Notes: a model not told the origin generated them from the sequence alone. A DNA stretch of 64,000 nucleotides from an uncultured Gemmatimonadaceae bacterium (GCA_964638035.1 CAZWXD010000015.1:12289-76288); one strand, 5' to 3'. Positions 8,578-50,701 are shown, counted from the stretch's first letter. Program-made: numbers and translations.

Positions 8578-10014
8578 GTGGACTCCCGCACCGGTGAGAC
8601 GCGCCCTGCCCAGCACAAGCGCCTGATGGACCGCAACCCCTGGAAGACGCTCGCGTGCGTGGTGACCGCCGTGTTCATGGTCATCCTCGACACGACGGCC
8701 GTGAACGTGGCGTTTCCCACGCTGCAGCGGGAGTATGGCGCGTCGCTGCAGGCCTCCCAGTGGATCGTGAGCCTGTATGTGCTGGTGCTGGGCATCACCA
8801 CGCCGCTGGCGGGCTGGCTCGCCGACCGCTTCGGGCTCCGCCGCATGTTCCTGCTGGGCATCGTGCTCTTCACCACCGGCTCGGCGCTCTGTGGCCTGGC
8901 GCCGTCGCTGCCGTTCCTCATCGCGGCGCGCGCCATCCAGGCCATCGGCGGCGGGATCACCCAGCCAGCCGGAAGCGCCCTGCTCTTCCGGGCGTTCCCA
9001 CCGGGTGAGATCGGGCGCGCCTTCGGGGTCTTCGGCATGGCGCTCCTGGTGGGCCCCGCCCTCGGCCCCGTGCTGGGCGGCCTGCTGGTAGACATGGGCC
9101 ACTGGCGCTGGATCTTCTTCATCAATGTCCCGTTTGGCTGCGCCGCCTTCCTCGCGGGCCGGCGCTGGCTCGCCGAGTGGCACCGGCCGGAAACGCCGTC
9201 GCTCGACCGCCTGGGCCTGCTGCTCTCCACCATCGGGTTCGGTGCCATCCTCCTCGCGGCAGCCTCGGTGCGGGGCCACGGGCTCACCTCGCCGATGGTG
9301 ACCGGCACGTTCGCCGTCGGCATCGGCGCCCTCGTGACCCTCTGGATCGTGGAGCATCGCTCCACGGCACCGCTCTTCGACGTGGACCTGCTGCAGAACC
9401 CCGTCTTCCTCACCGCCAACCTGGTGGGCTACGTGGGCGTGGTGGGCCTCTTTGCCGCGCAGTTCCTGCTCCCGCTCTTCCTCGAGGCGATCCGGAACCT
9501 CTCGCCGGGACAGGTGGGCCTCGTCCTCCTGGCCCAGCCCGTTGCCGGCGCCATCGCGTCGCCCATCACCGGTCGGCTCTACGATCGCATCGGCCCGCGG
9601 ATCCTGGCGACCATCGGGTTCTTCCTCCTGGCCATCAGCACCTGGCAGCTGGTGCACCTCACAGCCACCAGCAGCCTCGCACACATCCGGTTCATCCTGG
9701 TGCTGCGGGGGCTGGCGTTCGGCATGACCATCCAGACCACGTTCACCACCGCACTCGGCACGGTCGGGCGTGACCGGGTGGCACGGGCCTCGGCGTTCGT
9801 GAGCGCCACGCGGTTCAGCATCCAGGCCGTGTCGATCGCGGTGCTGAGCGCGGTGGTGGGTGGGGGCCTTGCGGGCAGGTACACCCTGCCCGGGTTCGCC
9901 ACCGCCTATGCGGTGACCTTCGTGTTCAGCGTGGCGGCCTGCCTGCTCGCCATGCGCCTGCCGGGGTGGCCGGGCCGGTGGGCGGGTCGGGAAGGCATGC
10001 AGCCAACCTCCTGA
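8578..10014 (+). CDS. MFS transporter, DHA2 (EmrB/QacA-like, 14-TMS) family
   Basis: The motifs are VFMVILDTTAVNVAFPTL and GWLADRFGLRRMFLLG (motif A-like), with about 14 hydrophobic segments. The track ORF starts at the GTG at 8578. The ATG at 8626 (MDRNPWK) is an equally plausible start. Confidence 0.88.
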   Translation: MDSRTGETRPAQHKRLMDRNPWKTLACVVTAVFMVILDTTAVNVAFPTLQREYGASLQASQWIVSLYVLVLGITTPLAGWLADRFGLRRMFLLGIVLFTTGSALCGLAPSLPFLIAARAIQAIGGGITQPAGSALLFRAFPPGEIGRAFGVFGMALLVGPALGPVLGGLLVDMGHWRWIFFINVPFGCAAFLAGRRWLAEWHRPETPSLDRLGLLLSTIGFGAILLAAASVRGHGLTSPMVTGTFAVGIGALVTLWIVEHRSTAPLFDVDLLQNPVFLTANLVGYVGVVGLFAAQFLLPLFLEAIRNLSPGQVGLVLLAQPVAGAIASPITGRLYDRIGPRILATIGFFLLAISTWQLVHLTATSSLAHIRFILVLRGLAFGMTIQTTFTTALGTVGRDRVARASAFVSATRFSIQAVSIAVLSAVVGGGLAGRYTLPGFATAYAVTFVFSVAACLLAMRLPGWPGRWAGREGMQPTS

Positions 10015-10038
10015 CGCCATGACGCCTTGGCGTCGTGG
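10012..10038. repeat. Degenerate mini-copy of the 8-bp TGACGCC-unit palindrome
   Basis: TGACGCCA TGACGCCT TGGCGTCGTGG begins on the TGA stop of the MFS gene. It has two tandem octamers followed by the inverted unit. The unit is the same as in the arrays at 41996..42122 and 48957..49097. Confidence 0.4.
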
Positions 10039-10045
10039 AGCACCC

Positions 10046-12571
10046 TCAGAACGCCCACCCTCCCTGCACATACAGCCGCGCCCGGTCTTCCGACACGGCA
10101 TACGCCGCGGTCACGGTGCTCCGGCGCGAGAGGAAGGCGAGCCAGATGCCACCGCCGGCCGCGCCGTGCCAGCGATCGGACGACTCGCCGTCCAGGAAGA
10201 CCCGGCCCACGTCGCCCAGCCCGAACAAACCCAGCTCGCCGGGCACGACCACGAAGAACCGGGTGAGCGCGAAGCGCAGTTCGGCGCTCCCGAACAGTGC
10301 CGCATCACCGGCGAAGCGCCGCTCCCGCCCCAGCCGCACCGTGCTCGTCCCGCCGATGTACGCCGCGTCCTGGTAGATGTAGTCGCCGAAGGTCTGCTGC
10401 CCGCCGGCGCGAAGGGCCAGCACCGGGCTCCCGGCGATCGCCGGGCTCAGGTAGGTGCTCACGGCGCCATGGACCTCGCCATAGGTGGATTGCACGTCCC
10501 AGAGGCCGGGCCGCACGGTCCCACCGAGCTCCACCAGCACGCCGCGCCGCGGATAGCCCGGCAGGTCGCGCGTATCGAGGACGTAGCTCGCCATCAGGCC
10601 CGCACGGCCGAACTTCCCCGAGCCGTAGGGCCGCACCGAGTCAATGAACCGGTCAGCAGTGAACTTGGTGCTCGACCAGGTGACGATCGGCCCCACCGAC
10701 ACGAGCCCTCGTCCCGCTGGCAGGTTCAGCGTCACCGCAGCCTGCAGGTCGTTCTCGCGGACCCGGTAGAACTCGTCCGGCTGGTCTGCGGTGGTCTCAT
10801 TGCCCAGGCCGTGGAAGCGAAGCACCTCGATGCCTGACGCGATGGCATGCACGCCCACCCACGGACCGCGCACCTCCGCGCGGAAGTCGCCCTTGTACTC
10901 CAGCTTGAAGGTCTGGGCATCGGTGGCATACGCGGCGCGCACGAGGTGGCGCGAGGCCCAGGGCTGCTGGCGGAAGCCGTAGTCGGTGATGAGGACACCG
11001 CCCCCCGCGAGCAGGCCGACATCCGGGCCATACGAACCCCATACCACCGGCAGGCTCTGGCTCCCCCAGTCGCGGGGCGGGAGCCTCGGGGGTTCCGGCG
11101 TCCATTCCGGCGGGACCGGCTTGTGCCGCACCTTCGCGGCTGGCACCGGGGTGAGGCCATCGGTGTCGTAGAGGCGGGCGCGGGCGCCCTGCTCCAGCGC
11201 CACGGCGTCGCTGCCCTTGCCGCCAATCACGCGGAGCGTGAAAGGCGTGCGGCCCTTCACGTCCACCGAGTCTGCCCCGCCATTGAGGTAGATCCGCACC
11301 TCGCCCGTCTCGCCCCCACGGAACACCCGGGAGAACCAGGGTGCGGCGCCGGGCTCGCGCCGGGCAATCGTGACGCGGCTCGCGCGCTCACCGGCCGGCT
11401 CGACCACCACCAGGTCGTCCTCGTCGGTGGCCTGCACGTCGGCTTCCCGTGCCAGGAGCCGGTAGTAGTCGCGAGCCGCGTCGGGGAGCCGGTCACGGCG
11501 TGACTTGAGGGCATTGGCGAGGCGCGCCGAGTCGAGCGGGAGGAAGGCGGCCGGCATGCGGGCCACCGCATGCTCGATCACGCTGTCGGTGAAGGCGCGC
11601 TGCAGTCCTGTCGCGGCCCGTTCCCACACGGGCCACTCCAGGGCCACCAGGAAGCGCCGGTCCAGCTCGCGCCCGTTCCAGGTGAGCCCCACCATGGCCG
11701 GATACTTCGGGCCGAAGTTCACCAACTGCGGTGCCTGGGCGCGTGCCACCAGGAGGAGCAGCCCGTCGAACCGCACGAACGCCTGGTCGCGGTCGCGCGG
11801 GATTGGCACCCAGGTCCGGGGCGCGGCGGAGTCCCAGGTGGCCCATCGCCACTGGTCGCGGTGGCGGTCCCAGTCGCCGATGAACACGTCCACCAGGCGC
11901 GCGTGCAGCAGCCGCTCCGCGTCCACCCGGTCCTTCGTGCCCTTCTCGATTCGCGTGAAGAGGTTGTCGCTGCTGATGACGCGCACCGACCCGGGCACCA
12001 CCAGGTCATCGGGGCCCTCGTCCGGCCGCTCCTCGAAGAGGCCCAGCATCCCGGCGTAGTCGGCAAAGGTGTCGAGCGGCGCGTCCGGCGGGACCTGCAC
12101 CAGCCGCGGCGTGGCGCGGGGCAGCCCGGCAGCCTTCACCAGCGGTGCTGCCACCACCGCCCCGGCGGGATGGGCAGAGCTGATCTGGTCCTGCACGATG
12201 CGCTGGGCAATGGTGCCATGCAGCTCGGGCGGCAGCAGGGACTTCGGGTCCTTGTCCACCGACCGCACAACGTACTCGTGGCCGTCCTTCCCCTTGAACC
12301 GCAGGCAGCGCGTCTGCTGCCCGCCGCACCGCTGGGTGGGGGTCAGGCCCCCCGCCACGTGGGCGAGGTCGAGCACCTCGACCTCGATGGGTGTCGCCCA
12401 GAGGTCACGATAGTGGTCGCCGAAGAAGATGCGGTGCAGCCACCCGGTGTCGTAGTGGGCACCAGGCGTAACGCGTACCGTGGCCGTGCCCGCGTCCTGT
12501 GCCAGGACGGGCGCCACCACGAGGACCATGCATGTGAGGCCTGCCGCAACACCCGCTAGTGCTCCAGCCAT
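10046..12571 (-). CDS. Omp85/BamA-superfamily outer-membrane protein with a non-POTRA N-terminal domain
   Basis: 841 aa with a signal peptide (VLVVAPVLAQD). The C-terminal 300 aa or so look like a Bac_surface_Ag beta-barrel, with alternating hydrophobic strands and a terminal ...ARLYVQGGWAF. The N-terminal 400 aa or so are unrelated to POTRA repeats and carry FIGDWDRHRDQWRW. Confidence 0.8.
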   Translation of the reverse strand: MAGALAGVAAGLTCMVLVVAPVLAQDAGTATVRVTPGAHYDTGWLHRIFFGDHYRDLWATPIEVEVLDLAHVAGGLTPTQRCGGQQTRCLRFKGKDGHEYVVRSVDKDPKSLLPPELHGTIAQRIVQDQISSAHPAGAVVAAPLVKAAGLPRATPRLVQVPPDAPLDTFADYAGMLGLFEERPDEGPDDLVVPGSVRVISSDNLFTRIEKGTKDRVDAERLLHARLVDVFIGDWDRHRDQWRWATWDSAAPRTWVPIPRDRDQAFVRFDGLLLLVARAQAPQLVNFGPKYPAMVGLTWNGRELDRRFLVALEWPVWERAATGLQRAFTDSVIEHAVARMPAAFLPLDSARLANALKSRRDRLPDAARDYYRLLAREADVQATDEDDLVVVEPAGERASRVTIARREPGAAPWFSRVFRGGETGEVRIYLNGGADSVDVKGRTPFTLRVIGGKGSDAVALEQGARARLYDTDGLTPVPAAKVRHKPVPPEWTPEPPRLPPRDWGSQSLPVVWGSYGPDVGLLAGGGVLITDYGFRQQPWASRHLVRAAYATDAQTFKLEYKGDFRAEVRGPWVGVHAIASGIEVLRFHGLGNETTADQPDEFYRVRENDLQAAVTLNLPAGRGLVSVGPIVTWSSTKFTADRFIDSVRPYGSGKFGRAGLMASYVLDTRDLPGYPRRGVLVELGGTVRPGLWDVQSTYGEVHGAVSTYLSPAIAGSPVLALRAGGQQTFGDYIYQDAAYIGGTSTVRLGRERRFAGDAALFGSAELRFALTRFFVVVPGELGLFGLGDVGRVFLDGESSDRWHGAAGGGIWLAFLSRRSTVTAAYAVSEDRARLYVQGGWAF

Positions 12572-18143: not shown

Positions 18144-18216
18144 TGGAGCGGACCGGGATCGAACCGGCGACCCCCTGCTTGCAAAGCAGGTGCTCTCCCA
18201 GCTGAGCTACCGCCCC
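18144..18216 (-). tRNA. tRNA-Ala (anticodon UGC)
   Basis: The minus strand reads GGGGCGGTAGCTCAGCTGGGAGAGCACCTGCTTTGCAAGCAGGGGGTCGCCGGTTCGATCCCGGTCCGCTCCA. I folded the cloverleaf by hand. It has a 7-bp acceptor stem with the Ala-identity G3:U70 pair, the D-arm GCTC/GAGC, the anticodon loop TTTGCAA, and the T-arm GGTTCGATCC. CCA is not encoded. Confidence 0.92.
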
Positions 18217-41059: not shown

Positions 41060-41996
41060 GGACGAACTCCACGCCTACCTCGACCAGGCCCTGGGCCGGT
41101 CGCAGTGCGTGGTCATCGAGAGCCACCTGGCGAGTTGCGCCGACTGCCGCCGCGAACGCGATGCGATCGCCGCGCTGCGCGACCGGACGACGCTGCTGCT
41201 GGGCCAGGCAGCGCCGGCACGGCGCATCGCTCCCTCCTTCGAGGCGCTGCAGCGGCGCGCGGTGCATGCGCCGGTGTCGCGCCGGGCGCGGCTCCTCCGG
41301 CGGGGCATCATGGCCGCGAGCCTGGTTGGAGCCATCGGGATCGGCTACGCGCTCCGTTCCCTCGAGCCCGCGCCCGAGGCGGCCACGGCCCAGCAGCCGG
41401 TCCTGCCGGTGCCGATGCCCGTGGCCGCGCCGGACCGGGCGGGTGGGCAACCCGACGTGCACCAGGTGGCGGAGCATCGGTCGAGCCCGGCCCGGGCAAG
41501 GGTACCCGCCGGGATCGCCGTGGACCGGAACCCCGCGGTTCCGCCGGCCCCCGTCGTTGCTGCCATCACGCCGCCTGCCTCGATCGAACTGTCCACGGAC
41601 ACCCTGCCGCAGGAAGAAACCGCCAGCCTCGTGGGCCTCTGGCGCACGGTGCCGTGGGATGCCGCGGAACAGGCGGCCGGGCGCGAACCGTCGCGGCTGA
41701 TCGGGGTGCCGGTCGAGCAGGTCCAGGTCCAGCCGAGCAGCCGGGAAGGTGGCAAGCCGGTCACGGTGGTGGCACAGCGGCTCTCATCGGGTGAGGTCAT
41801 CCAGACCATCGAGGGCCCGGCAGCCGATGTCACCCAGCTCCTCTCCCGGAGCGGTGACGGTGGGCTCGACTCCGCCGGCCGCTCGGCGCAGGCGGTCCGT
41901 TCCGGCGACCGGCTGATCGTGGTGACAGGCCAGCTCCCCTCGGACTCGCTGCGCGCGATGGCGCGGCGGGTGAATGCGGGGATGCGGGTGAGGTAG
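41043..41996 (+). CDS. Anti-sigma factor, zf-HC2 (ZAS) type, single-pass membrane protein
   Basis: The start is at the ATG at 41043, overlapping the sigma gene by 17 nt. The HxxxCxxC motif is in ESHLASCADCRRE, and the TM is GIMAASLVGAIGIGYAL. A Pro/Ala-rich periplasmic part follows. Confidence 0.8.
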   Translation: MSHIPEDELHAYLDQALGRSQCVVIESHLASCADCRRERDAIAALRDRTTLLLGQAAPARRIAPSFEALQRRAVHAPVSRRARLLRRGIMAASLVGAIGIGYALRSLEPAPEAATAQQPVLPVPMPVAAPDRAGGQPDVHQVAEHRSSPARARVPAGIAVDRNPAVPPAPVVAAITPPASIELSTDTLPQEETASLVGLWRTVPWDAAEQAAGREPSRLIGVPVEQVQVQPSSREGGKPVTVVAQRLSSGEVIQTIEGPAADVTQLLSRSGDGGLDSAGRSAQAVRSGDRLIVVTGQLPSDSLRAMARRVNAGMRVR

Positions 41997-42122
41997 GGCG
42001 TCAGGGCGTCAGGACGTCAGGACGTCAGGGAGAAAAAGGGCCACCGCGGTTTGCGATGGCCCTTTCGCTTTCCCTGACGCCCTGACGCCCTGACGCCCTG
42101 ACGTCCTGACGTCCTGACGCCC
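41996..42122. repeat. Nested palindrome built from tandem 8-bp units (RCGTCAGG)4 ... (CCTGACGY)6
   Basis: The + strand reads GCGTCAGG GCGTCAGG ACGTCAGG ACGTCAGG, then a central hairpin, then CCTGACGC x3, CCTGACGT x2 and CCTGACGC x1. It fills the whole convergent gap from the anti-sigma TAG to the actF stop. Confidence 0.9.
42035..42065. terminator. Bidirectional intrinsic-terminator-like hairpin
   Basis: AAAGGGCCA-ccgcggtttgcga-TGGCCCTTT forms a 9-bp stem. It is flanked by an A-run on the left and a T-run on the right, so either strand gets a U-tail. It lies between convergent genes. Confidence 0.7.
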
Positions 42123-43468
42123 TACTTCTCCAGGTCGGCCTCGTGCACGAAGTCCTTCTCGGTGTCTTCGTGATCGTAGTGCTCCACCTCGTGGTGGTGG
42201 ACCTCACGGCTCAGCGTGTTCTCCGCCAGCCGCGGTGAGATCATGGGCCAGGTGCGGCCGAAGAGCGCATGGGTGAGGAGAAAGAGGCCCAGGAACAGCG
42301 CGGTGGGCCCGACCTCGGGCACCCCGAAGCGCGGCCCGCTCTCTGCCGTGATCGACGGCACGATCATCAGGTAGCGCTCCAGCCAGAGCGCCGTGAGGCT
42401 CACCAGGGCCACGGCGGGCAGGATGACCCGGTTCTTCTTGGGTGCCACGCCCAGCAGCACGATGAACGGAATGAAGAAGAGGCCGGTGAGGACCGCCTGC
42501 GCGACCGGGATCCAGGGGCCCCAGAGCCGCGCGTAGACGAAGCCGGTCTCCTCGGGGAGGTTGGCATACCAGATGATCTGGAACTGGGCCCACATGAGGT
42601 AGGCCCAGAAGACCGAGAACCCGAAGCAGAGCTTGCCCAGGTCATGGCGCTGCTTGCCCGAGATGAGGTCGCTGACACCGAGCAGCTTGCCGTCGAAGAT
42701 CATGAGCACGGCCAGCAGCATGTAGCCGCCCAGGAACGATCCCATGAAGAACCAGCCGCCCAGCAGGTTGGAGTACCAGTGGGGCTGGAGCGCCATCATC
42801 CCGTCGAACGCGACCAGGGTGAGGACAATGGCGTAGAGCACGGCATACACCGGCGACAGGCGCCGGAGCTTGCCGTAGATCCGCTCCTGTGCGCCCTCGG
42901 AGTTGTCGTAGCCGCGCGCCCGGCGCTCGAAGAGCGCCCGCCGGCCGCCGGTGGCCGCCCCCTGCGCCGCAGCCACGTCGGGGATGAGGTCGGTGCGGAC
43001 CAGGCGCCAGCCGATCCAGTAGAGGAGCGACAGCCCCACGAAGAGCCGGCCGAACATGAAGCCCCGGCTGAGCCACACCGCCTTGCCATGCTGGAGCGAG
43101 TGCAGCTGCTCATGCATGTGACCGTAGATGTGGTCGTAGCCCACCGTGAAGATGAGCACCAGGCCCACGAGCGAGACCGGCGCGAACCAGATCGCCGCCT
43201 CCGCGAAGCGGATGACCACGCCCGACCACCGGGCGTTCACGATCTTGTCCACCGCCGCCACCGCCACGCTGCCGGCGCAGAGGCCGGTGAAGAAGACCCA
43301 GTTGACGTGGAAGAGGTGCCATGCGCGCGGCGCATTCTCGCCGCGGATGGTCATGGCAAACAGGATGAGGCCAAGGACCGCGAGGCCCATGCCCACCCCG
43401 AGCCGGGTCTCGTAGCGGCCCGAGAGGCCGGCTTCGACCAGGCGCTGCCGGATGTTCCGCCCTGGCAT
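42122..43468 (-). CDS. actF: Alternative complex III subunit ActF (NrfD-like membrane subunit)
   Basis: 448-aa polytopic protein that looks paralogous to ActC and is the last gene of the act operon. Its ATG shares one nucleotide (43468) with the actE stop codon (TGATG). Confidence 0.8.
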   Translation of the reverse strand: MPGRNIRQRLVEAGLSGRYETRLGVGMGLAVLGLILFAMTIRGENAPRAWHLFHVNWVFFTGLCAGSVAVAAVDKIVNARWSGVVIRFAEAAIWFAPVSLVGLVLIFTVGYDHIYGHMHEQLHSLQHGKAVWLSRGFMFGRLFVGLSLLYWIGWRLVRTDLIPDVAAAQGAATGGRRALFERRARGYDNSEGAQERIYGKLRRLSPVYAVLYAIVLTLVAFDGMMALQPHWYSNLLGGWFFMGSFLGGYMLLAVLMIFDGKLLGVSDLISGKQRHDLGKLCFGFSVFWAYLMWAQFQIIWYANLPEETGFVYARLWGPWIPVAQAVLTGLFFIPFIVLLGVAPKKNRVILPAVALVSLTALWLERYLMIVPSITAESGPRFGVPEVGPTALFLGLFLLTHALFGRTWPMISPRLAENTLSREVHHHEVEHYDHEDTEKDFVHEADLEK

Positions 43469-45960: not shown

Positions 45961-48939
45961 CTAGTGCTCCTCCGCCGCCGGCGCATGGGCCGCGGGCTCC
46001 CGCTGCAGGACCTTGGCCAGGTAGGTGATGGCCGGCCGCACGTTGATGTCCTCGAGGATGTGGTACCCCCGATGGTCGCCACTCCGCTCCACCACGGCGC
46101 TCCCCGGGTCGTGGAGGTCGCCGAAGGTGATGGCGCCGGACCCGCAGGCCTGCTGGCAGGCGGTCCGCACGTCACCATCCCGGAGCTCGCGATCCTCCAG
46201 CCGGGCCCGGTGCTCGGTGTTCCGGATGCGCTGCACGCAGAAGGTGCACTTCTCCATGACCCCGCGCGCCCGCACCACGACCTCGGGGTTGAGCTGCAGG
46301 TTGAGCGGCTCGACGAACACCTTCTTCGAGTAGTGCAGCCAGTTGAAGTAGCGCACCTTGTAGGGGCAGTTGTTGGCGCAGTACCGGGTGCCCACGCAGC
46401 GGTTGTACACCTGGCCGTTGAGCCCGTCCGGGGTGTGGTACGCCGCATACACGGGGCACACCGTCTCGCAGGGCGCGTTGTCGCAGTGCTGGCACAGCAT
46501 GGGGACGAACCGCGCCTCGACCGGCTCCCCGTCCGTGCCCCCCTCCCAGTACCGCTCCACCCGCATCCAGGTCATCTCGCGCCCGCGGAGGATCTCGTGC
46601 TCACCCACCCACGGGATGTTGTTCTCGGCGTAGCACGCCGTGATGCAGGCCGAGCACCCGGTGCAGCGCGACAGGTCCACCGCCATGCCCCACATGGCAT
46701 GCTCGCCCTTGTAGTCGCCCAGCCGCCGCCCCTGCCCGTCCTCGCGGCCCACGGTCTCCTCGCGCCAGCCCTGGATCGCCTCCAGCTCGCGCGGCGTGTT
46801 GATCTCATGCGGCGGATGCCCGGCGGCCCGGGCCGACTGCAGGAGCGTCATGCCCTGGAGGGCGTGCGCTACCGGCATCGCCTGGGCAATGCCGCGCCCG
46901 AGCTGCCGGGTGTGGCCCTCGGACTTGGCCACCTTCTGGTACTCGCGGGTGCGCTCGACCTGCACCTTCACCGAGGCGTACTGCAGGAAGGTGCCGGTGG
47001 TGGGGCCGAGGAGGTCGAGGTAGTTCACCCCGCGACCCTTCGCATAGTCGCCGAGCTCGGTGTGGCCCAGGCCCAGTGGCATCGCCACCACCCCGGGCTT
47101 GAGGCCGGGATAGATGTAGGCGGGCGCGGACACGCTGCCGTGCGCCGACGTCAGCTTGACCACCTCGCCCTCGCGCACGTTGAGCTGGGCGGCGGTGTCA
47201 GGGTGCATCTCCACCCACGATTGCCAGCTGATCTTCGTGACCGGGTCGGGCACCTCGGCCAGCCAGGGCCGGTTGGCGCCGCTCCCATCACTGTAGTGCG
47301 AGCTGGCGTAGGGCAGGAGCGTGAACTCACCGGGCCCCTCGAAGGCCGGGACCGCCGGGTTGACCGACGCGTTGGCGACGGACACGACGTAGGACGGCGC
47401 CTCCGCGTACTCACCACCCCGCTGCAGGGCATCACGCCAGGCGGCCTCGCCGCCACCGCGCGCCTGCCACACCGTGCGAACGTGCTCCTCCCAGCTGGCG
47501 GCGTTGAACTTCGCCAGCGGGCCGCCAACCTTCTGCGCCACCTTGAGGAGGACATCCCCGGTGGCCATGGTGTTGAACACCGGCGTCATCACCGGCTGCA
47601 TCAGGCCCCAGACGCCCGCGCGGGGATTCAGGTCATCCCAGCGCTCCAGCGCATGGTGGCCCGGCAGGAGCAGGTCGCACTGCGCCGCCGTCTCGTCGAA
47701 GTAGAGGGTCGTCGAGACCTTGAAGGGCACCTTGGCCAGGGCCTCGACGAAGCGGTTCTGCTGCGGCAGGGTGTAGGCCGGGTTCGACTCATGCACCAGG
47801 AGGACCTGGATGTCGCCCCGTCCCATGGCCCCGGCCAGCTGGATGACCGCCCCAAGGCCGTCGCCGTGGTCAAGGTCGGCGCCGAACCGGACCGTCCGGC
47901 CGATGTTGCCGGCCGCCTGGTTGAGCAGGTTCACCGCGGCGCAGAGCTCCACGGCGTTGGCATACTGGGCGCCGATGCCGCCGGCCACTGCCAGGCCAGG
48001 CGACGCCGCCGCGAACTCCTTCGCGATGCGGACCAGCACCTCGGCGGGGACGCCGGACGCCGCCGCCGCCGACTCGATGGTGGCTGCAGCGTTGCCGGTC
48101 GGGGCGATGGCGTTGGCCAGGGCGAGCGCCACCAGCGCCTCGGAGCCGGGGTTCACCGCATGCCAGTCGTCGGCGTTCAGGCCGGTGAGCGAGGCGCGAG
48201 GACCGAAGTAGACGAACCGGGCCGGCTGGCGCCCCGGGCTGAACCCGTGCGCCTCGGCAAAGCCCCGCTCGTACTCGGCCGACGAACCCCAGGTCTCGAG
48301 AAAGTCCGCGCCAAACGAGATGATGTACTTCGCCTGGCTGAAGTCGCAGGCAGGAACCTCGTCGCGCCCGAAGACCCGCTGGTTGGCCTCGCGCACCGGC
48401 TCCAGGTCGAACGGACGGTACCGCACCACCCGGCCACCCTGCGCCGCCATGACGTCACCCAGGAAGGTGTCGAACGTCCCCCGGCCGGCCCCCGAGAGAG
48501 CGGCCACCCTTCCACCCGCCGCCCCGAGCTTCGTGGCGAGCAGCGCGACGGCGTCATCCCACGAGATGTCCTTCCAGGCGCCTGCCTCCTTCACCATCGG
48601 CCCCTTCACCCGGCCCGGGTTGTACAGGCCCTGCAGGGCTGCCTGGCCCCGGGAGCAGAGGGCGCCGCGGTTCACCGGGTGTTCCGGGTTCCCGTCGAGC
48701 TTGATGGCCCGTCCCTCGCGCGTCTTCACGTGCACGCCGCAACCCGCGCTGCACTCGGTGCAGGTGCTGGCGTAGTACGTGGGAATGCCCGGCACCTGGT
48801 CCTCGGACTGCACCAGGTAGGGGATCAGCTTCTCCACTCGCTCCGTGCTGCAACCGGACAGCGCCGCGGCACCGGCACTGGTCGTGCCGAGCACCGTGAG
48901 GAACCGGCGGCGGGAGACGGGCGAGGTTTCGTCGGACAT
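45961..48939 (-). CDS. actB: Alternative complex III subunit ActB (fused molybdopterin-oxidoreductase-like and 4Fe-4S ferredoxin-like domains)
   Basis: 992 aa with the Tat signal SRRRFLTVLGTTSAGAAALSGC. The cluster motifs are CTGCSACITAC, CQHCDNAPCETVCP, CVGTRYCANNCP and CTFCVQR. Confidence 0.9.
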   Translation of the reverse strand: MSDETSPVSRRRFLTVLGTTSAGAAALSGCSTERVEKLIPYLVQSEDQVPGIPTYYASTCTECSAGCGVHVKTREGRAIKLDGNPEHPVNRGALCSRGQAALQGLYNPGRVKGPMVKEAGAWKDISWDDAVALLATKLGAAGGRVAALSGAGRGTFDTFLGDVMAAQGGRVVRYRPFDLEPVREANQRVFGRDEVPACDFSQAKYIISFGADFLETWGSSAEYERGFAEAHGFSPGRQPARFVYFGPRASLTGLNADDWHAVNPGSEALVALALANAIAPTGNAAATIESAAAASGVPAEVLVRIAKEFAAASPGLAVAGGIGAQYANAVELCAAVNLLNQAAGNIGRTVRFGADLDHGDGLGAVIQLAGAMGRGDIQVLLVHESNPAYTLPQQNRFVEALAKVPFKVSTTLYFDETAAQCDLLLPGHHALERWDDLNPRAGVWGLMQPVMTPVFNTMATGDVLLKVAQKVGGPLAKFNAASWEEHVRTVWQARGGGEAAWRDALQRGGEYAEAPSYVVSVANASVNPAVPAFEGPGEFTLLPYASSHYSDGSGANRPWLAEVPDPVTKISWQSWVEMHPDTAAQLNVREGEVVKLTSAHGSVSAPAYIYPGLKPGVVAMPLGLGHTELGDYAKGRGVNYLDLLGPTTGTFLQYASVKVQVERTREYQKVAKSEGHTRQLGRGIAQAMPVAHALQGMTLLQSARAAGHPPHEINTPRELEAIQGWREETVGREDGQGRRLGDYKGEHAMWGMAVDLSRCTGCSACITACYAENNIPWVGEHEILRGREMTWMRVERYWEGGTDGEPVEARFVPMLCQHCDNAPCETVCPVYAAYHTPDGLNGQVYNRCVGTRYCANNCPYKVRYFNWLHYSKKVFVEPLNLQLNPEVVVRARGVMEKCTFCVQRIRNTEHRARLEDRELRDGDVRTACQQACGSGAITFGDLHDPGSAVVERSGDHRGYHILEDINVRPAITYLAKVLQREPAAHAPAAEEH

Positions 48940-48956
48940 GTGGGACTCCGAGTTCA

Positions 48957-49097
48957 GGACGTCAAGGCGTCAAGGCGTCAAGGCGTCAAGGCGTCAAGGC
49001 GTCAAGGCGTCAAGGCGTCACGATACTGGGTTCTCGTACGGACGCAAACCGCGCCCCCTCTTCGCCCTGACGTCCTGACGTCCTGACGTCCTGACGC
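48957..49097. repeat. Second copy of the 8-bp-unit palindromic element, in the actA-actB intercistronic spacer
   Basis: The + strand reads GGACGTCA then (AGGCGTCA)x7 (48957..49020). A 45-bp spacer containing CGCAAACCGCG (49043..49053) follows. Then come (CCTGACGT)x3 and CCTGACGC (49066..49097), ending at the actA stop codon. Confidence 0.9.
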
Positions 49098-49688
49098 CTA
49101 GTGATGGCAGATCGTGCAATCGCGCTTGACGCCACGGGCGAGGTGGCAGTTGATGCACCACCCCATGTTGTTGACGTTGTTGACCTTGAACACCTGGGGC
49201 ATGCGGGCCACGTCGCCGTGACAGGCGGCGCAGGCGGTCGGGCCCATCGCCTTCACGTGGTTCTGGTGCGGGAAGTGAACGTGGCGGGCAACGAAGTGCA
49301 CCCGGACCCACTCGATCGGCGCCTTCTTGCCCCACGCGTCCCGCACCTTGCGGATCTCGTTCTGGTTGGCACTGTCCGAGCCGCTCACCACCAGGTGGCA
49401 CCCCATGCAGGTCTGCATCGAGGGGACGCCGGGCTCGGTGGAGACGGAGGCGGAGTAATGGCAGTATTGGCAGGAGATCTGGTACTGACCGGCGTGGATG
49501 TCGTGCCGGAAGAAGACCGGTTGGCGTGGGCCGGGCAACGTCGCCGTATCGCCGGCAGCGAGGACCACGCTGGTGGGCGGCTTGGGAGGGCCGGCCTGCT
49601 GGGCACTCGAGGGACGGTCAAGGACAACGGCGAGCGTCACGACCGCGGCACCCGCTCCGATGGCCAACCACGCCGACTTCCGCATCAT
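49098..49688 (-). CDS. actA: Alternative complex III subunit ActA (penta-haem cytochrome c)
   Basis: The start is at the ATG at 49688 (MMRKSAWLAIGAGAAVVTLAVVL anchor). Five CxxCH motifs are present: CQYCH, CMGCH, CAACH, CINCH and CTICH. Confidence 0.9.
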   Translation of the reverse strand: MMRKSAWLAIGAGAAVVTLAVVLDRPSSAQQAGPPKPPTSVVLAAGDTATLPGPRQPVFFRHDIHAGQYQISCQYCHYSASVSTEPGVPSMQTCMGCHLVVSGSDSANQNEIRKVRDAWGKKAPIEWVRVHFVARHVHFPHQNHVKAMGPTACAACHGDVARMPQVFKVNNVNNMGWCINCHLARGVKRDCTICHH

Positions 49689-49894: not shown

Positions 49895-50677
49895 CTACGT
49901 ATCCCCGCCCGGGCCCCCGGATCCCTCCCGGAGCATGCCCTGGCGACGGAGGTAATGCCGGACCTCGATGCCCATCGCCCGCAGGAGCTTTGCCTCCCGC
50001 TGGTCGAGCCCCGCGCGGAAGACAACTTCCCGGAAGGAGCGAAGGACGTTGTCGCGCTGCCGGGTCTTGAAGAACTCGATGGCGTCGAGTGTGCGCTCCC
50101 AGTCGGCGAAGAGCAGCTCCTGTTCCTCCATGGTCACCGCCGGGGCCTGCCGCCGCGGGCGCTTGAAGGGTTGCCGGTTGCCACCCTGGGCCACCCAGAG
50201 TTCGTACGCCATCACGGCAATCGCCTGCGCCAGGTTGAGCGAGGTGTAGCTCGGGTCGGTGGCGATGGTGATCAGCGTCTGGCAGGCGTCCAGTTCATCA
50301 TTGGTGAGCCCGTGGGCCTCCCGTCCCGCCACCAGGGCCACCCGCCCCTCGCTTGCGTGCGACAGCAGGTCATCGGCCGCGTCCCGGGGCCGCAGGATCC
50401 GCCGCTTCGCTGCCCGTTCCCGGCCGGTCAGCACGCCCGCGTAGACGCAGTCGGCCAGCGCAGCGGCCAGGGTGTCGAAGGTGCGGATGCGGCTGATGAA
50501 CTCCCCGGTATTGTGCGCCACGCCCTCGATGCGGTAGGCATCGAGTTCCACTTCCGGTTGCACCACGCGCATCTCGGGGATGCCGAAGTTGCGGCAGATC
50601 CGCACCGCCGAACCCACATTGACGATGTCCTGCGGGGCGACGAGGACGAGGGTGACACGGGTCAATGGGGACGTCAT
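49895..50677 (-). CDS. SpoU/TrmH-family RNA 2'-O-methyltransferase (TrmJ-like group)
   Basis: 260 aa with the motifs VLVAPQDIVNVGSAVRICRNFG, ALVAGREAHGLTNDEL and SLNLAQAIAVMAYE (SPOUT knot motifs). Confidence 0.8.
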   Translation of the reverse strand: MTSPLTRVTLVLVAPQDIVNVGSAVRICRNFGIPEMRVVQPEVELDAYRIEGVAHNTGEFISRIRTFDTLAAALADCVYAGVLTGRERAAKRRILRPRDAADDLLSHASEGRVALVAGREAHGLTNDELDACQTLITIATDPSYTSLNLAQAIAVMAYELWVAQGGNRQPFKRPRRQAPAVTMEEQELLFADWERTLDAIEFFKTRQRDNVLRSFREVVFRAGLDQREAKLLRAMGIEVRHYLRRQGMLREGSGGPGGDT

Positions 50678-50701
50678 GGCGCCTTGACGTCATGACGCCT
50701 G
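50670..50701. repeat. Degenerate octamer-unit echo spanning a gene junction
   Basis: GACGTCAT GGCGCCTT GACGTCAT GACGCCTG has an 8-nt register, with units related to GACGTCAA/GGCGTCAA of the 48957 array. It covers the dehydrogenase stop and the methyltransferase start (ATGA at 50674..50677). Confidence 0.3.

What the first reader, a model, noticed from the sequence alone, without database searches (positions are those of the whole stretch)
48940..49097. Second, oppositely oriented copy of the octamer-array element splits actA from actB inside the ACIII operon
The 158-nt actA-actB spacer contains GGACGTCA(AGGCGTCA)7, a 45-bp spacer, and (CCTGACGT)3CCTGACGC. The last unit abuts the actA stop codon. 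Read on the minus (mRNA) strand, the layout is (RCGTCAGG)4 - CGCGGTTTGCG - inverted array. That is the same architecture and the same 11-mer core (49043..49053 versus 42045..42055) as the element at 41996..42122. The two are therefore homologous copies of one dispersed element in opposite orientations. The distal array has a shifted unit (TGACGCCT). The arms would therefore pair as about 7 bp per unit with single-nucleotide bulges. All other act junctions are overlapping or abutting. A large stem-loop placed only after actA could set differential mRNA stability or translation of the penta-haem subunit versus ActB-F, as REP elements do in other operons.
Basis: partly seen in the sequence, partly recalled or inferred. 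Interest (0 to 1): 0.65.

Follow-up and report, generated by a model that had tools for sequence, protein, structure and literature searches.

The report
REP-like octamer-array hairpin between actA and actB
The 158-base spacer between the first two genes of this respiratory operon holds one copy of a many-copy, fast-changing hairpin repeat that starts at the stop codon; it resembles the "REP" repeats of other bacteria, and its effect on expression has not been measured.

Summary
The actA–actB spacer (48940–49097) is TAG + GCGTCAGG(ACGTCAGG)3, a 45-nt centre, then (TGACGCCT)7TGACGTCC, on the mRNA strand. It shares unit, layout and an 11-mer with the element at 41997–42121.

The organism is an uncultured Gemmatimonadota from activated sludge. 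In four metagenomes the arrays carry roughly 20–200 times the flanking single-copy contig depth. At least six further array–loop–array joints sit at about single-copy depth. The family is therefore dispersed, probably with dozens of copies.

The convergent-gene copy (E1) has a bidirectional intrinsic terminator at its centre. The intra-operon copy (E2) keeps only the top of that hairpin and has no U-tract, so read-through to actB is expected.

Relatives with 65–74% ActB identity have 11–80-nt spacers without the element. The nearest relatives have a hairpin at the same site (73 nt and 122 nt). In the 73-nt version, from a 95.6%-identical relative, the unit has changed in both arms together.

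Each RCGUCAGG arm folds on itself and leaves (G)UAG unpaired, like a GTAG-tagged REP in a head-to-head dimer. The regulatory role in mRNA stability or attenuation is plausible by analogy only. I file it as a new variant of a known kind, of moderate interest.

The parts
49098..49100 (-). actA stop codon TAG, preceded by C (CTAG). Its last two bases lie in the base of the predicted stem.
49066..49097 (-). Proximal arm of E2: GCGTCAGG(ACGTCAGG)3. It is self-complementary on its own (-17 kcal/mol, z = -7) and leaves UAG unpaired.
49021..49065 (-). E2 centre, 45 nt: GCGAAGAGGGGGCGCGGTTTGCGTCCGTACGAGAACCCAGTATCG. The left half matches the E1 centre. The right half is unrelated. There is no U-tract.
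49040..49056 (-). Residual small hairpin GGGCGC-GGUUU-GCGUCC, read by eye. It contains the shared 11-mer (49043-49053), which is the top of E1's terminator stem-loop.
   Evidence: read from sequence
48957..49020 (-). Distal arm of E2: (TGACGCCT)7 TGACGTCC. It is not self-complementary. It carries UGA in all three frames. One unit fewer is present in the JGI contig L110.
48940..48956 (-). Leader of actB left outside the big hairpin: TGAACTCGGAGTCCCAC. The conserved Shine-Dalgarno GGAG is at 48946-48949, 6 nt before the ATG.
49098..49685 (-). actA, multihaem cytochrome c3/c7-type subunit (195 aa as called in public assemblies).
45961..48939 (-). actB, molybdopterin-like plus 4Fe-4S subunit, 992 aa.
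41997..42029 (+). E1 left arm: (GGCGTCAG)2(GACGTCAG)2G. It starts right after the TAG of the zf-HC2 anti-sigma gene (context GTAG).
42030..42072 (.). E1 centre: bidirectional intrinsic terminator. GGGCCACCGCGGTTTGCGATGGCCC (42038-42062) has a 10-bp stem and 5-nt loop, with an A-run upstream and a T-run downstream.
42073..42121 (-). E1 right arm: six RCGTCAGG units read on the minus strand. It starts right after the TAG of actF (42122-42124, context GTAG).
10005..10035 (-). Miniature relative in another intercistronic spacer: a GACGCC-AA-GGCGTC hairpin plus GGCGTCAT/GGCGTCAG units that run into the downstream GGAGG.

Best explanation
E2 is an intra-operon member of a genome-wide family of REP-like hairpin repeats in an uncultured Gemmatimonadota bacterium.

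A family member has two inverted arrays of the octamer RCGTCAGG with the outer ends set against stop codons (TAG, mostly GTAG). The middle is variable. Each arm also folds on itself, so a member looks like a head-to-head dimer of GTAG-tagged REPs.

Between convergent genes (E1) the middle is a bidirectional intrinsic terminator, and the arms lengthen its stem. E2 keeps only the top 6 bp and the loop of that terminator hairpin. It has no lower stem and no U-tract, so RNA polymerase is expected to read through into actB-F.

E2 sits where more distant relatives have only 11-80 nt. It has been expanded and remodelled quickly, by unit slippage together with arm-to-arm correction (template switching or conversion).

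Inferred working in the act mRNA:
- The roughly 140-nt imperfect hairpin (about -85 kcal/mol) closes from the stop codon to 17 nt before the actB ATG.
- It loops the insertion out, so the actA stop and the conserved actB Shine-Dalgarno stay close.
- It gives the actA segment a stable 3' structure that could block 3'-5' decay and somewhat attenuate downstream transcription, as E. coli REPs do.

Shown: identity, family membership, absence of terminator features, evolutionary turnover. Inferred: every effect on RNA or protein levels.
For: - Sequence and statistics.
- Act gene identities.
- Folding: E2 -85.1 kcal/mol (z = -6.3), E1 -99 to -117 kcal/mol (z = -12 to -14).
- E1's centre is a 10-bp GC stem with flanking A- and T-runs. 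E2's centre shares GCGAAGAGGGGG..CGCGGTTTGCG with it, but its 3' half is unrelated and no T-run follows.
- Dispersal: in X1, X2, X3 and X9 (E1) and X1, X2, X8 and X9 (E2), summed contig depth over the arrays is 19-88x (E2) and 39-210x (E1) the flanking depth. For each arm the ratios are of the same order in all four runs. 62-86 contigs are laid per run and contigs break at the arrays.
- Joints show six other array-loop-array members (ACATCCTTGAAT, GGTAGCT, AGAAC, GGAGTA, ACCGGGTC, GGGAAGTTCT), most at about the organism's single-copy depth.
- Orthologous spacers: 34, 80, 38, 11 and 30 nt in relatives with 65-74% ActB identity, with the CGGAG Shine-Dalgarno conserved.
- A 122-nt near-perfect hairpin in the relative with 83% ActA identity, and a 73-nt hairpin in a 95.6%-identical relative, with CGTTCGG/CTGAACG units in place of CGTCAGG/TTGACGC but the same pattern of 7 bp plus one mismatch per unit.
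- Arms fold alone with UAG unpaired. All three genes that touch arrays use TAG, although TGA is the usual stop (22 of 32 long ORFs).
- Literature: GTAG REP termini often supply TAG stops, and head-to-head dimers carry 1-100-bp spacers (PMC3733652). REP325 both stabilises the upstream mRNA and partly terminates within an operon (bioRxiv 10.64898/2026.03.23.713779). Template switching homogenises and expands inverted-repeat arms (PMC13100816).
Against: - There are no expression data. The RNA runs gave only fragments, mostly from relatives.
- ACIII subunits are generally taken to assemble 1:1 (my own knowledge), so there is no obvious need for more ActA than ActB-F.
- Relatives at 65-74% ActB identity manage without the element.
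- E2 folds equally well on both strands (-85 against -83 kcal/mol), so nothing points specifically to selection at the RNA level.
- Co-variation of the arms can come from template switching without any selection.
- E2's tag is CTAG, not GTAG. Its distal arm is a different, non-self-complementary unit.
- No RAYT gene could be looked for.
- The copy-number estimate from summed contig depth is inflated by multiple registers.
- The 7-against-6-unit difference could be an assembly effect.
Confidence: 0.55

Rival explanations
1. Selfish or purely mutational by-product with no regulatory effect. Octamer arrays next to TAG expand by replication slippage, and the two arms are kept alike by template switching or conversion. 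The copy in the act operon persists only because it lacks a terminator and is harmless.
For: - The element is absent in relatives with the same operon.
- It was completely remodelled between 95.6%-identical relatives.
- The unit number differs between two assemblies of the same organism.
- Family members have unrelated centres.
- The fold is equally good on both strands.
- Template switching is known to homogenise and extend inverted repeats (PMC13100816, PMC5941160).
Against: - A hairpin at exactly this site is kept in three lineages (the window, L132, L130) despite sequence turnover.
- The intra-operon copy is specifically free of terminator features, which implies at least purifying selection on its effect on the operon.
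- REPs in comparable positions do alter expression in E. coli (bioRxiv 10.64898/2026.03.23.713779).
Confidence: 0.3
2. Translational brake on ActA. The stem begins inside the stop codon, so the terminating ribosome meets a long helix at its entry channel and stalls. The mRNA is then cut or the protein tagged, lowering ActA output. This is the effect reported for E. coli REPs within 15 nt of a stop codon.
For: - The stem starts at base 2 of UAG in the window, base 1 in L132 and base 3 in L130.
- Arrays abut the stop codons in E1 as well.
[quoted passage not shown] 2015).
Against: - There are no data for this organism.
- The stem is interrupted every 7 bp.
- Lowering the first subunit of a complex generally taken to be 1:1 (my own knowledge) has no evident benefit.
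Confidence: 0.1
3. DNA-level element: a binding-site array for a protein, a cruciform or quadruplex former, or a recombination or replication-pause site. Unit number would act as a variable dial.
For: - The repeat is a regular 8-bp unit containing TGACG/GACGTC.
- The E1 minus strand has four G3 runs spaced by 5 nt, a formal quadruplex motif.
- G-rich heptamer arrays near stop codons in Xanthomonas and Nostoc have been discussed as quadruplex formers (PMC4692102).
- Unit-number differences are seen between assemblies.
Against: - An 8-bp period is out of helical phase.
- E2's units have only GG runs.
- Family units differ between close relatives, which argues against a conserved protein site.
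- Location at 3' ends, with the stem anchored on the stop codon, fits an RNA or transposition logic better.
Confidence: 0.04
4. The two elements are unrelated local slippage products, or E2 is an assembly artefact.
For: - Single (CGTCAGGR)n arrays are common in many unrelated high-GC genomes.
- Assemblies break at the arrays.
Against: - The same element is present in an independent JGI assembly.
- Short contigs from several runs bridge array to centre and array to gene junctions exactly.
- None of the 109 loci from other taxa has the paired inverted layout.
- E1 and E2 share the unit, the 45-nt spacing and the 11-mer.
Confidence: 0.01

Closest known systems
GTAG-tagged REPs arranged as head-to-head dimers / BIMEs (E. 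coli, Pseudomonas, Stenotrophomonas; Di Nocera et al. 2013, PMC3733652)
   Same: - Many copies, extragenic, mostly downstream of ORFs between unidirectional and convergent genes.
- An unpaired (G)TAG at the outer end that supplies or abuts the TAG stop.
- Two units in inverted orientation with a variable 1-100-bp spacer, able to fold separately or as one large stem-loop.
- G.U pairs in the stems.
- Heterodimers with imperfect arms.
- Sequence specific to the species.
   Different: - Each arm is a tandem array of an 8-nt unit, whose GACGTC core makes the array self-complementary. It is not a single 6-13-bp stem-loop.
- Whole elements are 73-160 nt.
- Unit number varies.
- E2's tag is CTAG and its distal arm is a different unit.
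- The phylum Gemmatimonadota is not mentioned in that survey.
- RAYT association is unknown.
REP325 in the E. coli yjdMN operon and the classical malE-malF REP (functional analogy)
   Same: A repeated palindrome placed between two cistrons of one operon, directly after the upstream stop codon. In E. coli it stabilises the upstream mRNA segment and partly terminates transcription (bioRxiv 10.64898/2026.03.23.713779).
   Different: Nothing has been measured here. The hairpin is several times longer. The flanking genes encode subunits of one complex rather than a binding protein and its transporter.
Intergenic heptamer arrays: STRR of cyanobacteria, GGGAATC of Xanthomonas (PMC4692102), TAACTGA of Beggiatoaceae (PMC4679880)
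   Same: [quoted passage not shown]
   Different: As described in those papers, those arrays are mainly direct repeats rather than inverted pairs. A quadruplex, not a hairpin, is the structure proposed for GGGAATC. Here the defining feature is two inverted arrays forming one hairpin.
MITEs inserted in operons (for example the Neisseria Correia element)
   Same: Non-coding repeats with inverted ends, co-transcribed with neighbouring genes, forming hairpins that can be RNase targets or terminators.
   Different: No target-site duplication, no conserved internal sequence, and no similarity to an IS end was found. The ends are tandem arrays.
Bidirectional intrinsic terminators
   Same: The E1 centre, and the centres at the same convergent site in relatives, are GC stems flanked by A- and T-runs.
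   Different: E2 lacks the lower stem and the U-tract. The flanking arrays are not part of a canonical terminator.

Membership tests
REP (GTAG super-family, head-to-head dimer / BIME) | Unpaired terminal GTAG tag at the outer end of each unit | tested here: inconclusive
   E1 has GTAG at both outer ends (gGTAGggcg and aGTAGggcg), and the tag stays unpaired when an arm folds alone. E2 has CTAG at the actA end and no tag at the actB end.
REP (GTAG super-family, head-to-head dimer / BIME) | Each unit is a short imperfect palindrome (stem 5-13 bp, loop 2-20 nt) | tested here: inconclusive
   RCGUCAGG arms fold alone into interrupted stems of 5-6-bp blocks with a CAGG loop (-16 to -28 kcal/mol, z = -6 to -9). 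However, the arm is a tandem array of variable length, and E2's distal arm does not fold alone (z = -2.2).
REP (GTAG super-family, head-to-head dimer / BIME) | High copy number, extragenic, mainly 3' of genes | tested here: met
   Array depth is 19-210x the single-copy depth in several metagenomes. 62-86 contigs are laid per run, and at least six other members sit at about single-copy depth. All copies seen lie after stop codons. The exact count is not known.
REP (GTAG super-family, head-to-head dimer / BIME) | Associated RAYT (IS200/IS605-type tyrosine transposase) flanked by the repeats | not testable with these tools
   Only 64 kb of this genome is on hand. The public collection scans did not return this organism.
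Intrinsic (Rho-independent) terminator | GC-rich stem-loop immediately followed by a U-tract on the transcribed strand | tested here: not met
   For E2, no T-run follows either the residual inner hairpin or the whole hairpin, and the scan finds none. The E1 centre does meet this feature by eye and by folding, although the simple scanner missed it.
MITE | Terminal inverted repeats with a target-site duplication and a conserved body derived from an IS | tested here: not met
   No duplication flanks E1 or E2. Centres differ between members. The ends are tandem arrays.
Tandem heptamer/octamer intergenic SSR (STRR-like) | Direct head-to-tail arrays of a 7-9-nt unit at many intergenic loci near stop codons | tested here: met
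   TRF finds period 8 with 92-100% matches, next to stop codons. The inverted pairing and hairpin go beyond this definition.
Any Rfam RNA family | Match at the gathering score | tested here: not met
   Only sub-threshold matches to generic long-hairpin (miRNA precursor) models.
CRISPR array | Repeats of 24-48 nt separated by unique spacers of similar length | tested here: not met
   The units are 8 nt and contiguous, with no spacers.

The most novel reading that the evidence does not exclude
These may be REP-type elements caught while they grow. A self-complementary octamer (core GACGTC) anchored on a TAG stop would expand by slippage, acquire an inverted partner by template switching, and spread or be homogenised across dozens of 3' ends. 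Each lineage would then carry its own unit: CGTCAGG here, CGTTCGG in a 95.6%-identical relative, and GGCGGCAR or CCTGCCG in more distant ones. That would be a replication-driven, possibly transposase-independent, route to the birth of REP/BIME families and of extended terminators. Copies inside operons would be selected to lose the terminator.
Probability: 0.2. Interest if true: 0.6.

Novelty: new variant of a known kind. Interest (0 to 1): 0.4.

Why it matters
- It adds a phylum (Gemmatimonadota, known largely from metagenomes) to the bacteria that carry REP-like stop-codon-anchored palindromes. In this form the palindrome arm is a tandem octamer array.
- One orthologous site runs from an 11-nt spacer to a 158-nt hairpin, with both arms changing together between relatives that are 95.6% identical at the nucleotide level. 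That gives unusually fine material for asking how such repeats arise and how their arms are kept complementary.
- For the respiratory operon itself, the element is a candidate post-transcriptional dial, but not a demonstrated one.
- A practical point: the arrays break short-read assemblies and make unit counts unreliable.

Tried and rejected
- Census in public genomes. All were single arrays in Streptomyces, Kitasatospora, Sorangium, Acidimicrobiales and others, and none was paired. This shows the bare octamer array is common in high-GC genomes and is not diagnostic.
- Metagenome scans. The gapped pattern found nothing. An ungapped family-specific pattern found 9 unrelated single arrays. The collection does not hold this organism, since not even contig L110 was returned.
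- RNA evidence. The five RNA runs are Logan contigs with 5-8% of the words, mostly 90-95% alike and so from relatives, and they break at the arrays. No conclusion is possible.
- Rfam gave no family.
- The promoter and terminator scan found nothing in E2. It also missed E1's obvious terminator, so its negative result is weak.
- I looked for strand asymmetry of folding as a sign of RNA-level selection. There is none.
- P0008, the relative with 84% ActB identity, sits on a contig that starts inside actB, so it gives no spacer.
I therefore could not test whether that genome's whole family uses the CGTTCGG unit.
- Rejected readings: CRISPR (no spacers), riboswitch or sRNA (no family, no conservation of sequence), internal promoter (no match), and a coding function (the only ORF across E2 is a spurious antisense ORF).

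Full report
**The observation**

The finding is accurate to the base. On the minus (mRNA) strand the actA stop codon TAG (49100-49098) is followed at once by four parts:
- GCGTCAGG(ACGTCAGG)3 at 49097-49066;
- a 45-nt centre at 49065-49021;
- (TGACGCCT)7TGACGTCC at 49020-48957;
- 17 nt that hold the GGAG Shine-Dalgarno, before the actB ATG at 48939.

TRF reports perfect period-8 arrays. Multi-unit patterns occur 11 and 23 times in the window against 0.00 and 0.64 expected from shuffles.

Pfam and NCBIfam identify the six minus-strand genes as ActA (multihaem c3/c7), ActB (molybdopterin-like plus 4Fe-4S), ActC (NrfD), ActD, ActE (cytochrome c) and ActF. Every other act junction abuts or overlaps.

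The second element (E1, 41997-42121) lies between the convergent stop codons of a zf-HC2 anti-sigma gene and actF.

**Anatomy of the two copies**

E1 is an almost perfect palindrome: -99 to -117 kcal/mol, z = -12 to -14. Its centre, GGGCCACCGCGGTTTGCGATGGCCC (42038-42062), is a 10-bp GC stem with a 5-nt loop. An A-run precedes it and a T-run follows it, so it is a bidirectional intrinsic terminator for both converging genes.

E2 folds to -85 kcal/mol, z = -6.3. Each unit pairs as 7 bp (one of them G.U) plus one A.C mismatch.

E2's centre begins like E1's. Compare GCGAAGAGGGGG-CGCGGTTTGCG with GAGAAAAAGGGCCAC-CGCGGTTTGCG. The shared 11-mer is the top of E1's hairpin. A match this good occurs in about 0.1-0.2% of shuffled or random 45-mers.

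The 3' half of E2's centre is unrelated to E1. Only a 6-bp remnant of the stem is left. No T-run follows either that remnant or the whole hairpin.

So the intra-operon copy lacks what makes E1 a terminator. The big stem closes from inside the stop codon to 17 nt before the actB ATG and leaves the GGAG free. Both strands fold equally well, at -85 and -83 kcal/mol.

**Whose genome it is, and whether the element is dispersed**

The locus is in a JGI activated-sludge contig at about 100% identity, with one distal unit fewer. The sequence is held by many sludge, wastewater and soil metagenomes. ActB relatives at 62-74% identity that carry a name are labelled Gemmatimonadales or Gemmatimonadota.

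Public collection scans could not give a census:
- The metagenome collection does not hold this organism.

The evidence comes instead from contigs of public DNA runs laid on the window:
- Summed contig depth over the arrays is 39-210x (E1) and 19-88x (E2) the flanking depth. For each arm the ratios are of the same order across the four runs, although the organism's own depth in them ranges from about 6 to 40.
- 62-86 contigs are laid per run, and contigs break at the arrays.
- Joints show at least six other array-loop-array members with 5-12-nt centres. Most have a depth close to the organism's single-copy depth in that run.
- Several loose ends show TAG directly next to an array.

The depth ratios overstate the copy number, because arrays can be laid in several registers. 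A family of dozens is still the simplest reading. The arms are the conserved part of the family and the centres are variable.

**Comparative series at the same site**

Synteny is conserved in all relatives fetched. The table gives the actA-actB spacer in each.

| Relative | Similarity to the window | Spacer length | What the spacer holds |
|---|---|---|---|
| L118 | ActB 67% | 11 nt | no element |
| L119 | ActB 65% | 30 nt | no element |
| L111 | ActB 74% | 34 nt | no significant structure |
| L114-L117 | ActB 73% | 38 nt | TAG GGCGTGAG GGCGTG plus a small hairpin |
| L112 | ActB 73% | 80 nt | (GACGGTCN)4 after the stop, no inverted arm |
| L130/L131 | ActA 83% | 122 nt | near-perfect hairpin, -90 kcal/mol, z = -10.5 |
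| L132 | 95.6% nucleotide identity, ActA protein identical | 73 nt | hairpin, -38 kcal/mol, z = -6.1 |
| JGI contig L110/L113 | about 100% | 150 nt | E2 with 6 distal units |
| window | - | 158 nt | E2 with 7 distal units |

The CGGAG-N6-7-ATG motif is conserved throughout.

In L130 the units are GACGTCAG. The variant innermost unit GACTTCAG is matched by TTGAAGTC in the other arm.

In L132 the units are CGTTCGG and CTGAACG, where the window has CGTCAGG and TTGACGC. Both arms have changed together, and the pattern of 7 bp plus one mismatch per unit is the same.

So a post-stop hairpin is kept in the nearest clade while its sequence turns over completely.

The convergent actF/anti-sigma spacer shows the same layout in relatives, array then terminator then inverted array, with both ends set on TAG. 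The units there are GGCGGCAR or the heptamer CCTGCCG. Two contigs that encode the same ActB protein (L114, L117) differ by two units.

**What it is like**

Each RCGUCAGG arm is self-complementary, because GACGUC is a palindrome. Folded alone, the arms give -16 to -28 kcal/mol (z = -6 to -9) and leave (G)UAG unpaired.

This matches the description of GTAG-tagged REPs by Di Nocera et al. (PMC3733652):
- an unpaired GTAG at one end;
- termini that often supply the TAG stop to the flanking ORF;
- predominant head-to-head dimers with 1-100-bp spacers that may fold as one large stem-loop;
- G.U pairs in the stems;
- heterodimers with imperfect arms;
- location between unidirectional and convergent ORFs.

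E1 has GTAG at both ends. E2 has CTAG. In the window TGA is the usual stop (22 of 32 long ORFs), yet all three genes that touch arrays end in TAG.

There are three differences from classical REPs. The arm is a tandem array of variable unit number. E2's distal arm is a different unit that does not fold on itself. RAYT association cannot be examined.

Intergenic heptamer arrays near stop codons (PMC4692102, PMC4679880) are a second, looser parallel. Rfam has no matching family.

**How it most likely works**

Shown:
- E2 is a family member.
- It lies wholly within the act transcription unit.
- It has no terminator features.
- It leaves the conserved ribosome-binding site outside the stem.
- It is evolutionarily recent and unstable.

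Inferred:
- In the mRNA the hairpin loops out the insertion, so the stop codon and the actB ribosome-binding site stay about 20 nt apart, as in relatives.
- It forms a stable 3' structure for the actA segment.
- By analogy with REP325 in yjdMN, it could protect the upstream RNA and partly attenuate downstream transcription (bioRxiv 10.64898/2026.03.23.713779).
- Because the stem starts inside the stop codon, it could instead stall terminating ribosomes (PMC12306157, citing Liang et al. 2015).
- The joint change of the two arms needs no selection. Template switching between inverted-repeat arms homogenises and extends them (PMC13100816, PMC5941160).

A neutral, tolerated repeat therefore remains a serious rival. 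The public RNA runs are too fragmentary to decide.

**Verdict**

- The homology and dispersed-family interpretation is supported, with the correction that the arms, not the 11-mer centre, define the family.
- The regulatory interpretation is plausible but untested.
- This is a new variant of a known kind: REP/BIME-like, stop-codon-anchored palindromes built from tandem octamers, in a phylum where I found none reported in the literature I searched.
- Interest is moderate, mainly for the fine-grained evolutionary series at one orthologous site.

Noticed in passing
window 10005-10035 (minus strand): A miniature relative of the element sits in another intercistronic spacer, between a gene ending at 10046 and one starting at ATG 9998. 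It has a GACGCC-AA-GGCGTC hairpin followed by GGCGTCAT GGCGTCAG units. The last unit runs into the downstream GGAGG ribosome-binding site.
   Followed up: partly
window 50665-50700: Octamer-like units (GACGTCAT GGCGCCTT GACGTCAT GACGCC) lie inside the 4-nt coding overlap between the NAD-binding dehydrogenase stop and the trmJ start. In relative L114 the same junction is a 46-nt spacer holding (CCTTGCCG) units.
   Followed up: partly
L001-L109 and L120-L128 (other taxa): Single (CGTCAGGG)n or (CGTCAGGA)n arrays of 3-24 units occur in more than 100 unrelated high-GC genomes, including Streptomyces, Kitasatospora, Sorangium, Frankia and Acidimicrobiales. In several loci inspected by eye they sit at the 3' end of a gene. 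The complementary strand (CCCTGACG) carries TGA in all three frames and appears to supply the stop codon in some cases. No control octamer was scanned, so whether this unit is special is not known.
   Followed up: partly
window 42072-42100 (minus strand); arrays in other taxa: (GGGCGTCA) repeated four or more times is a formal G3N5 quadruplex motif. E1's actF-sense strand has four such runs. E2 has only GG runs.
   Followed up: no
L132 2089-2161; L130 6592-6713: Orthologous actA-actB hairpins in the nearest relatives use different units, or have compensatory unit variants in both arms. L132 has CGTTCGG/CTGAACG. L130 has GACTTCAG paired with TTGAAGTC.
   Followed up: yes
L111 16890-17008 and 20022-20153; L114 16908-17005; L117 9446-9559: Relatives carry the same layout (array, terminator, inverted array) at convergent gene ends, but with GGCGGCAR octamers or CCTGCCG heptamers. 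L114 and L117 encode the same ActB protein and differ by two units and by the length of a G-run.
   Followed up: partly
L111 13015-16889: actC and actF are split into fragments in this long contig, probably because of indel errors in a long-read assembly. Irregular units in its arrays should be read with caution.
   Followed up: no
window 48788-48837: Within the actB N-terminal coding region, short DNA contigs pile up to 4-10 times the flanking depth in run X1, and a loose end there reads GGTGGCCACC. This is probably a conserved or repeated short motif shared with other genes. It is not related to the element.
   Followed up: no
window 18144-18216 (minus strand): One tRNA gene, the only Rfam match in the window at the gathering score.
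   Followed up: no
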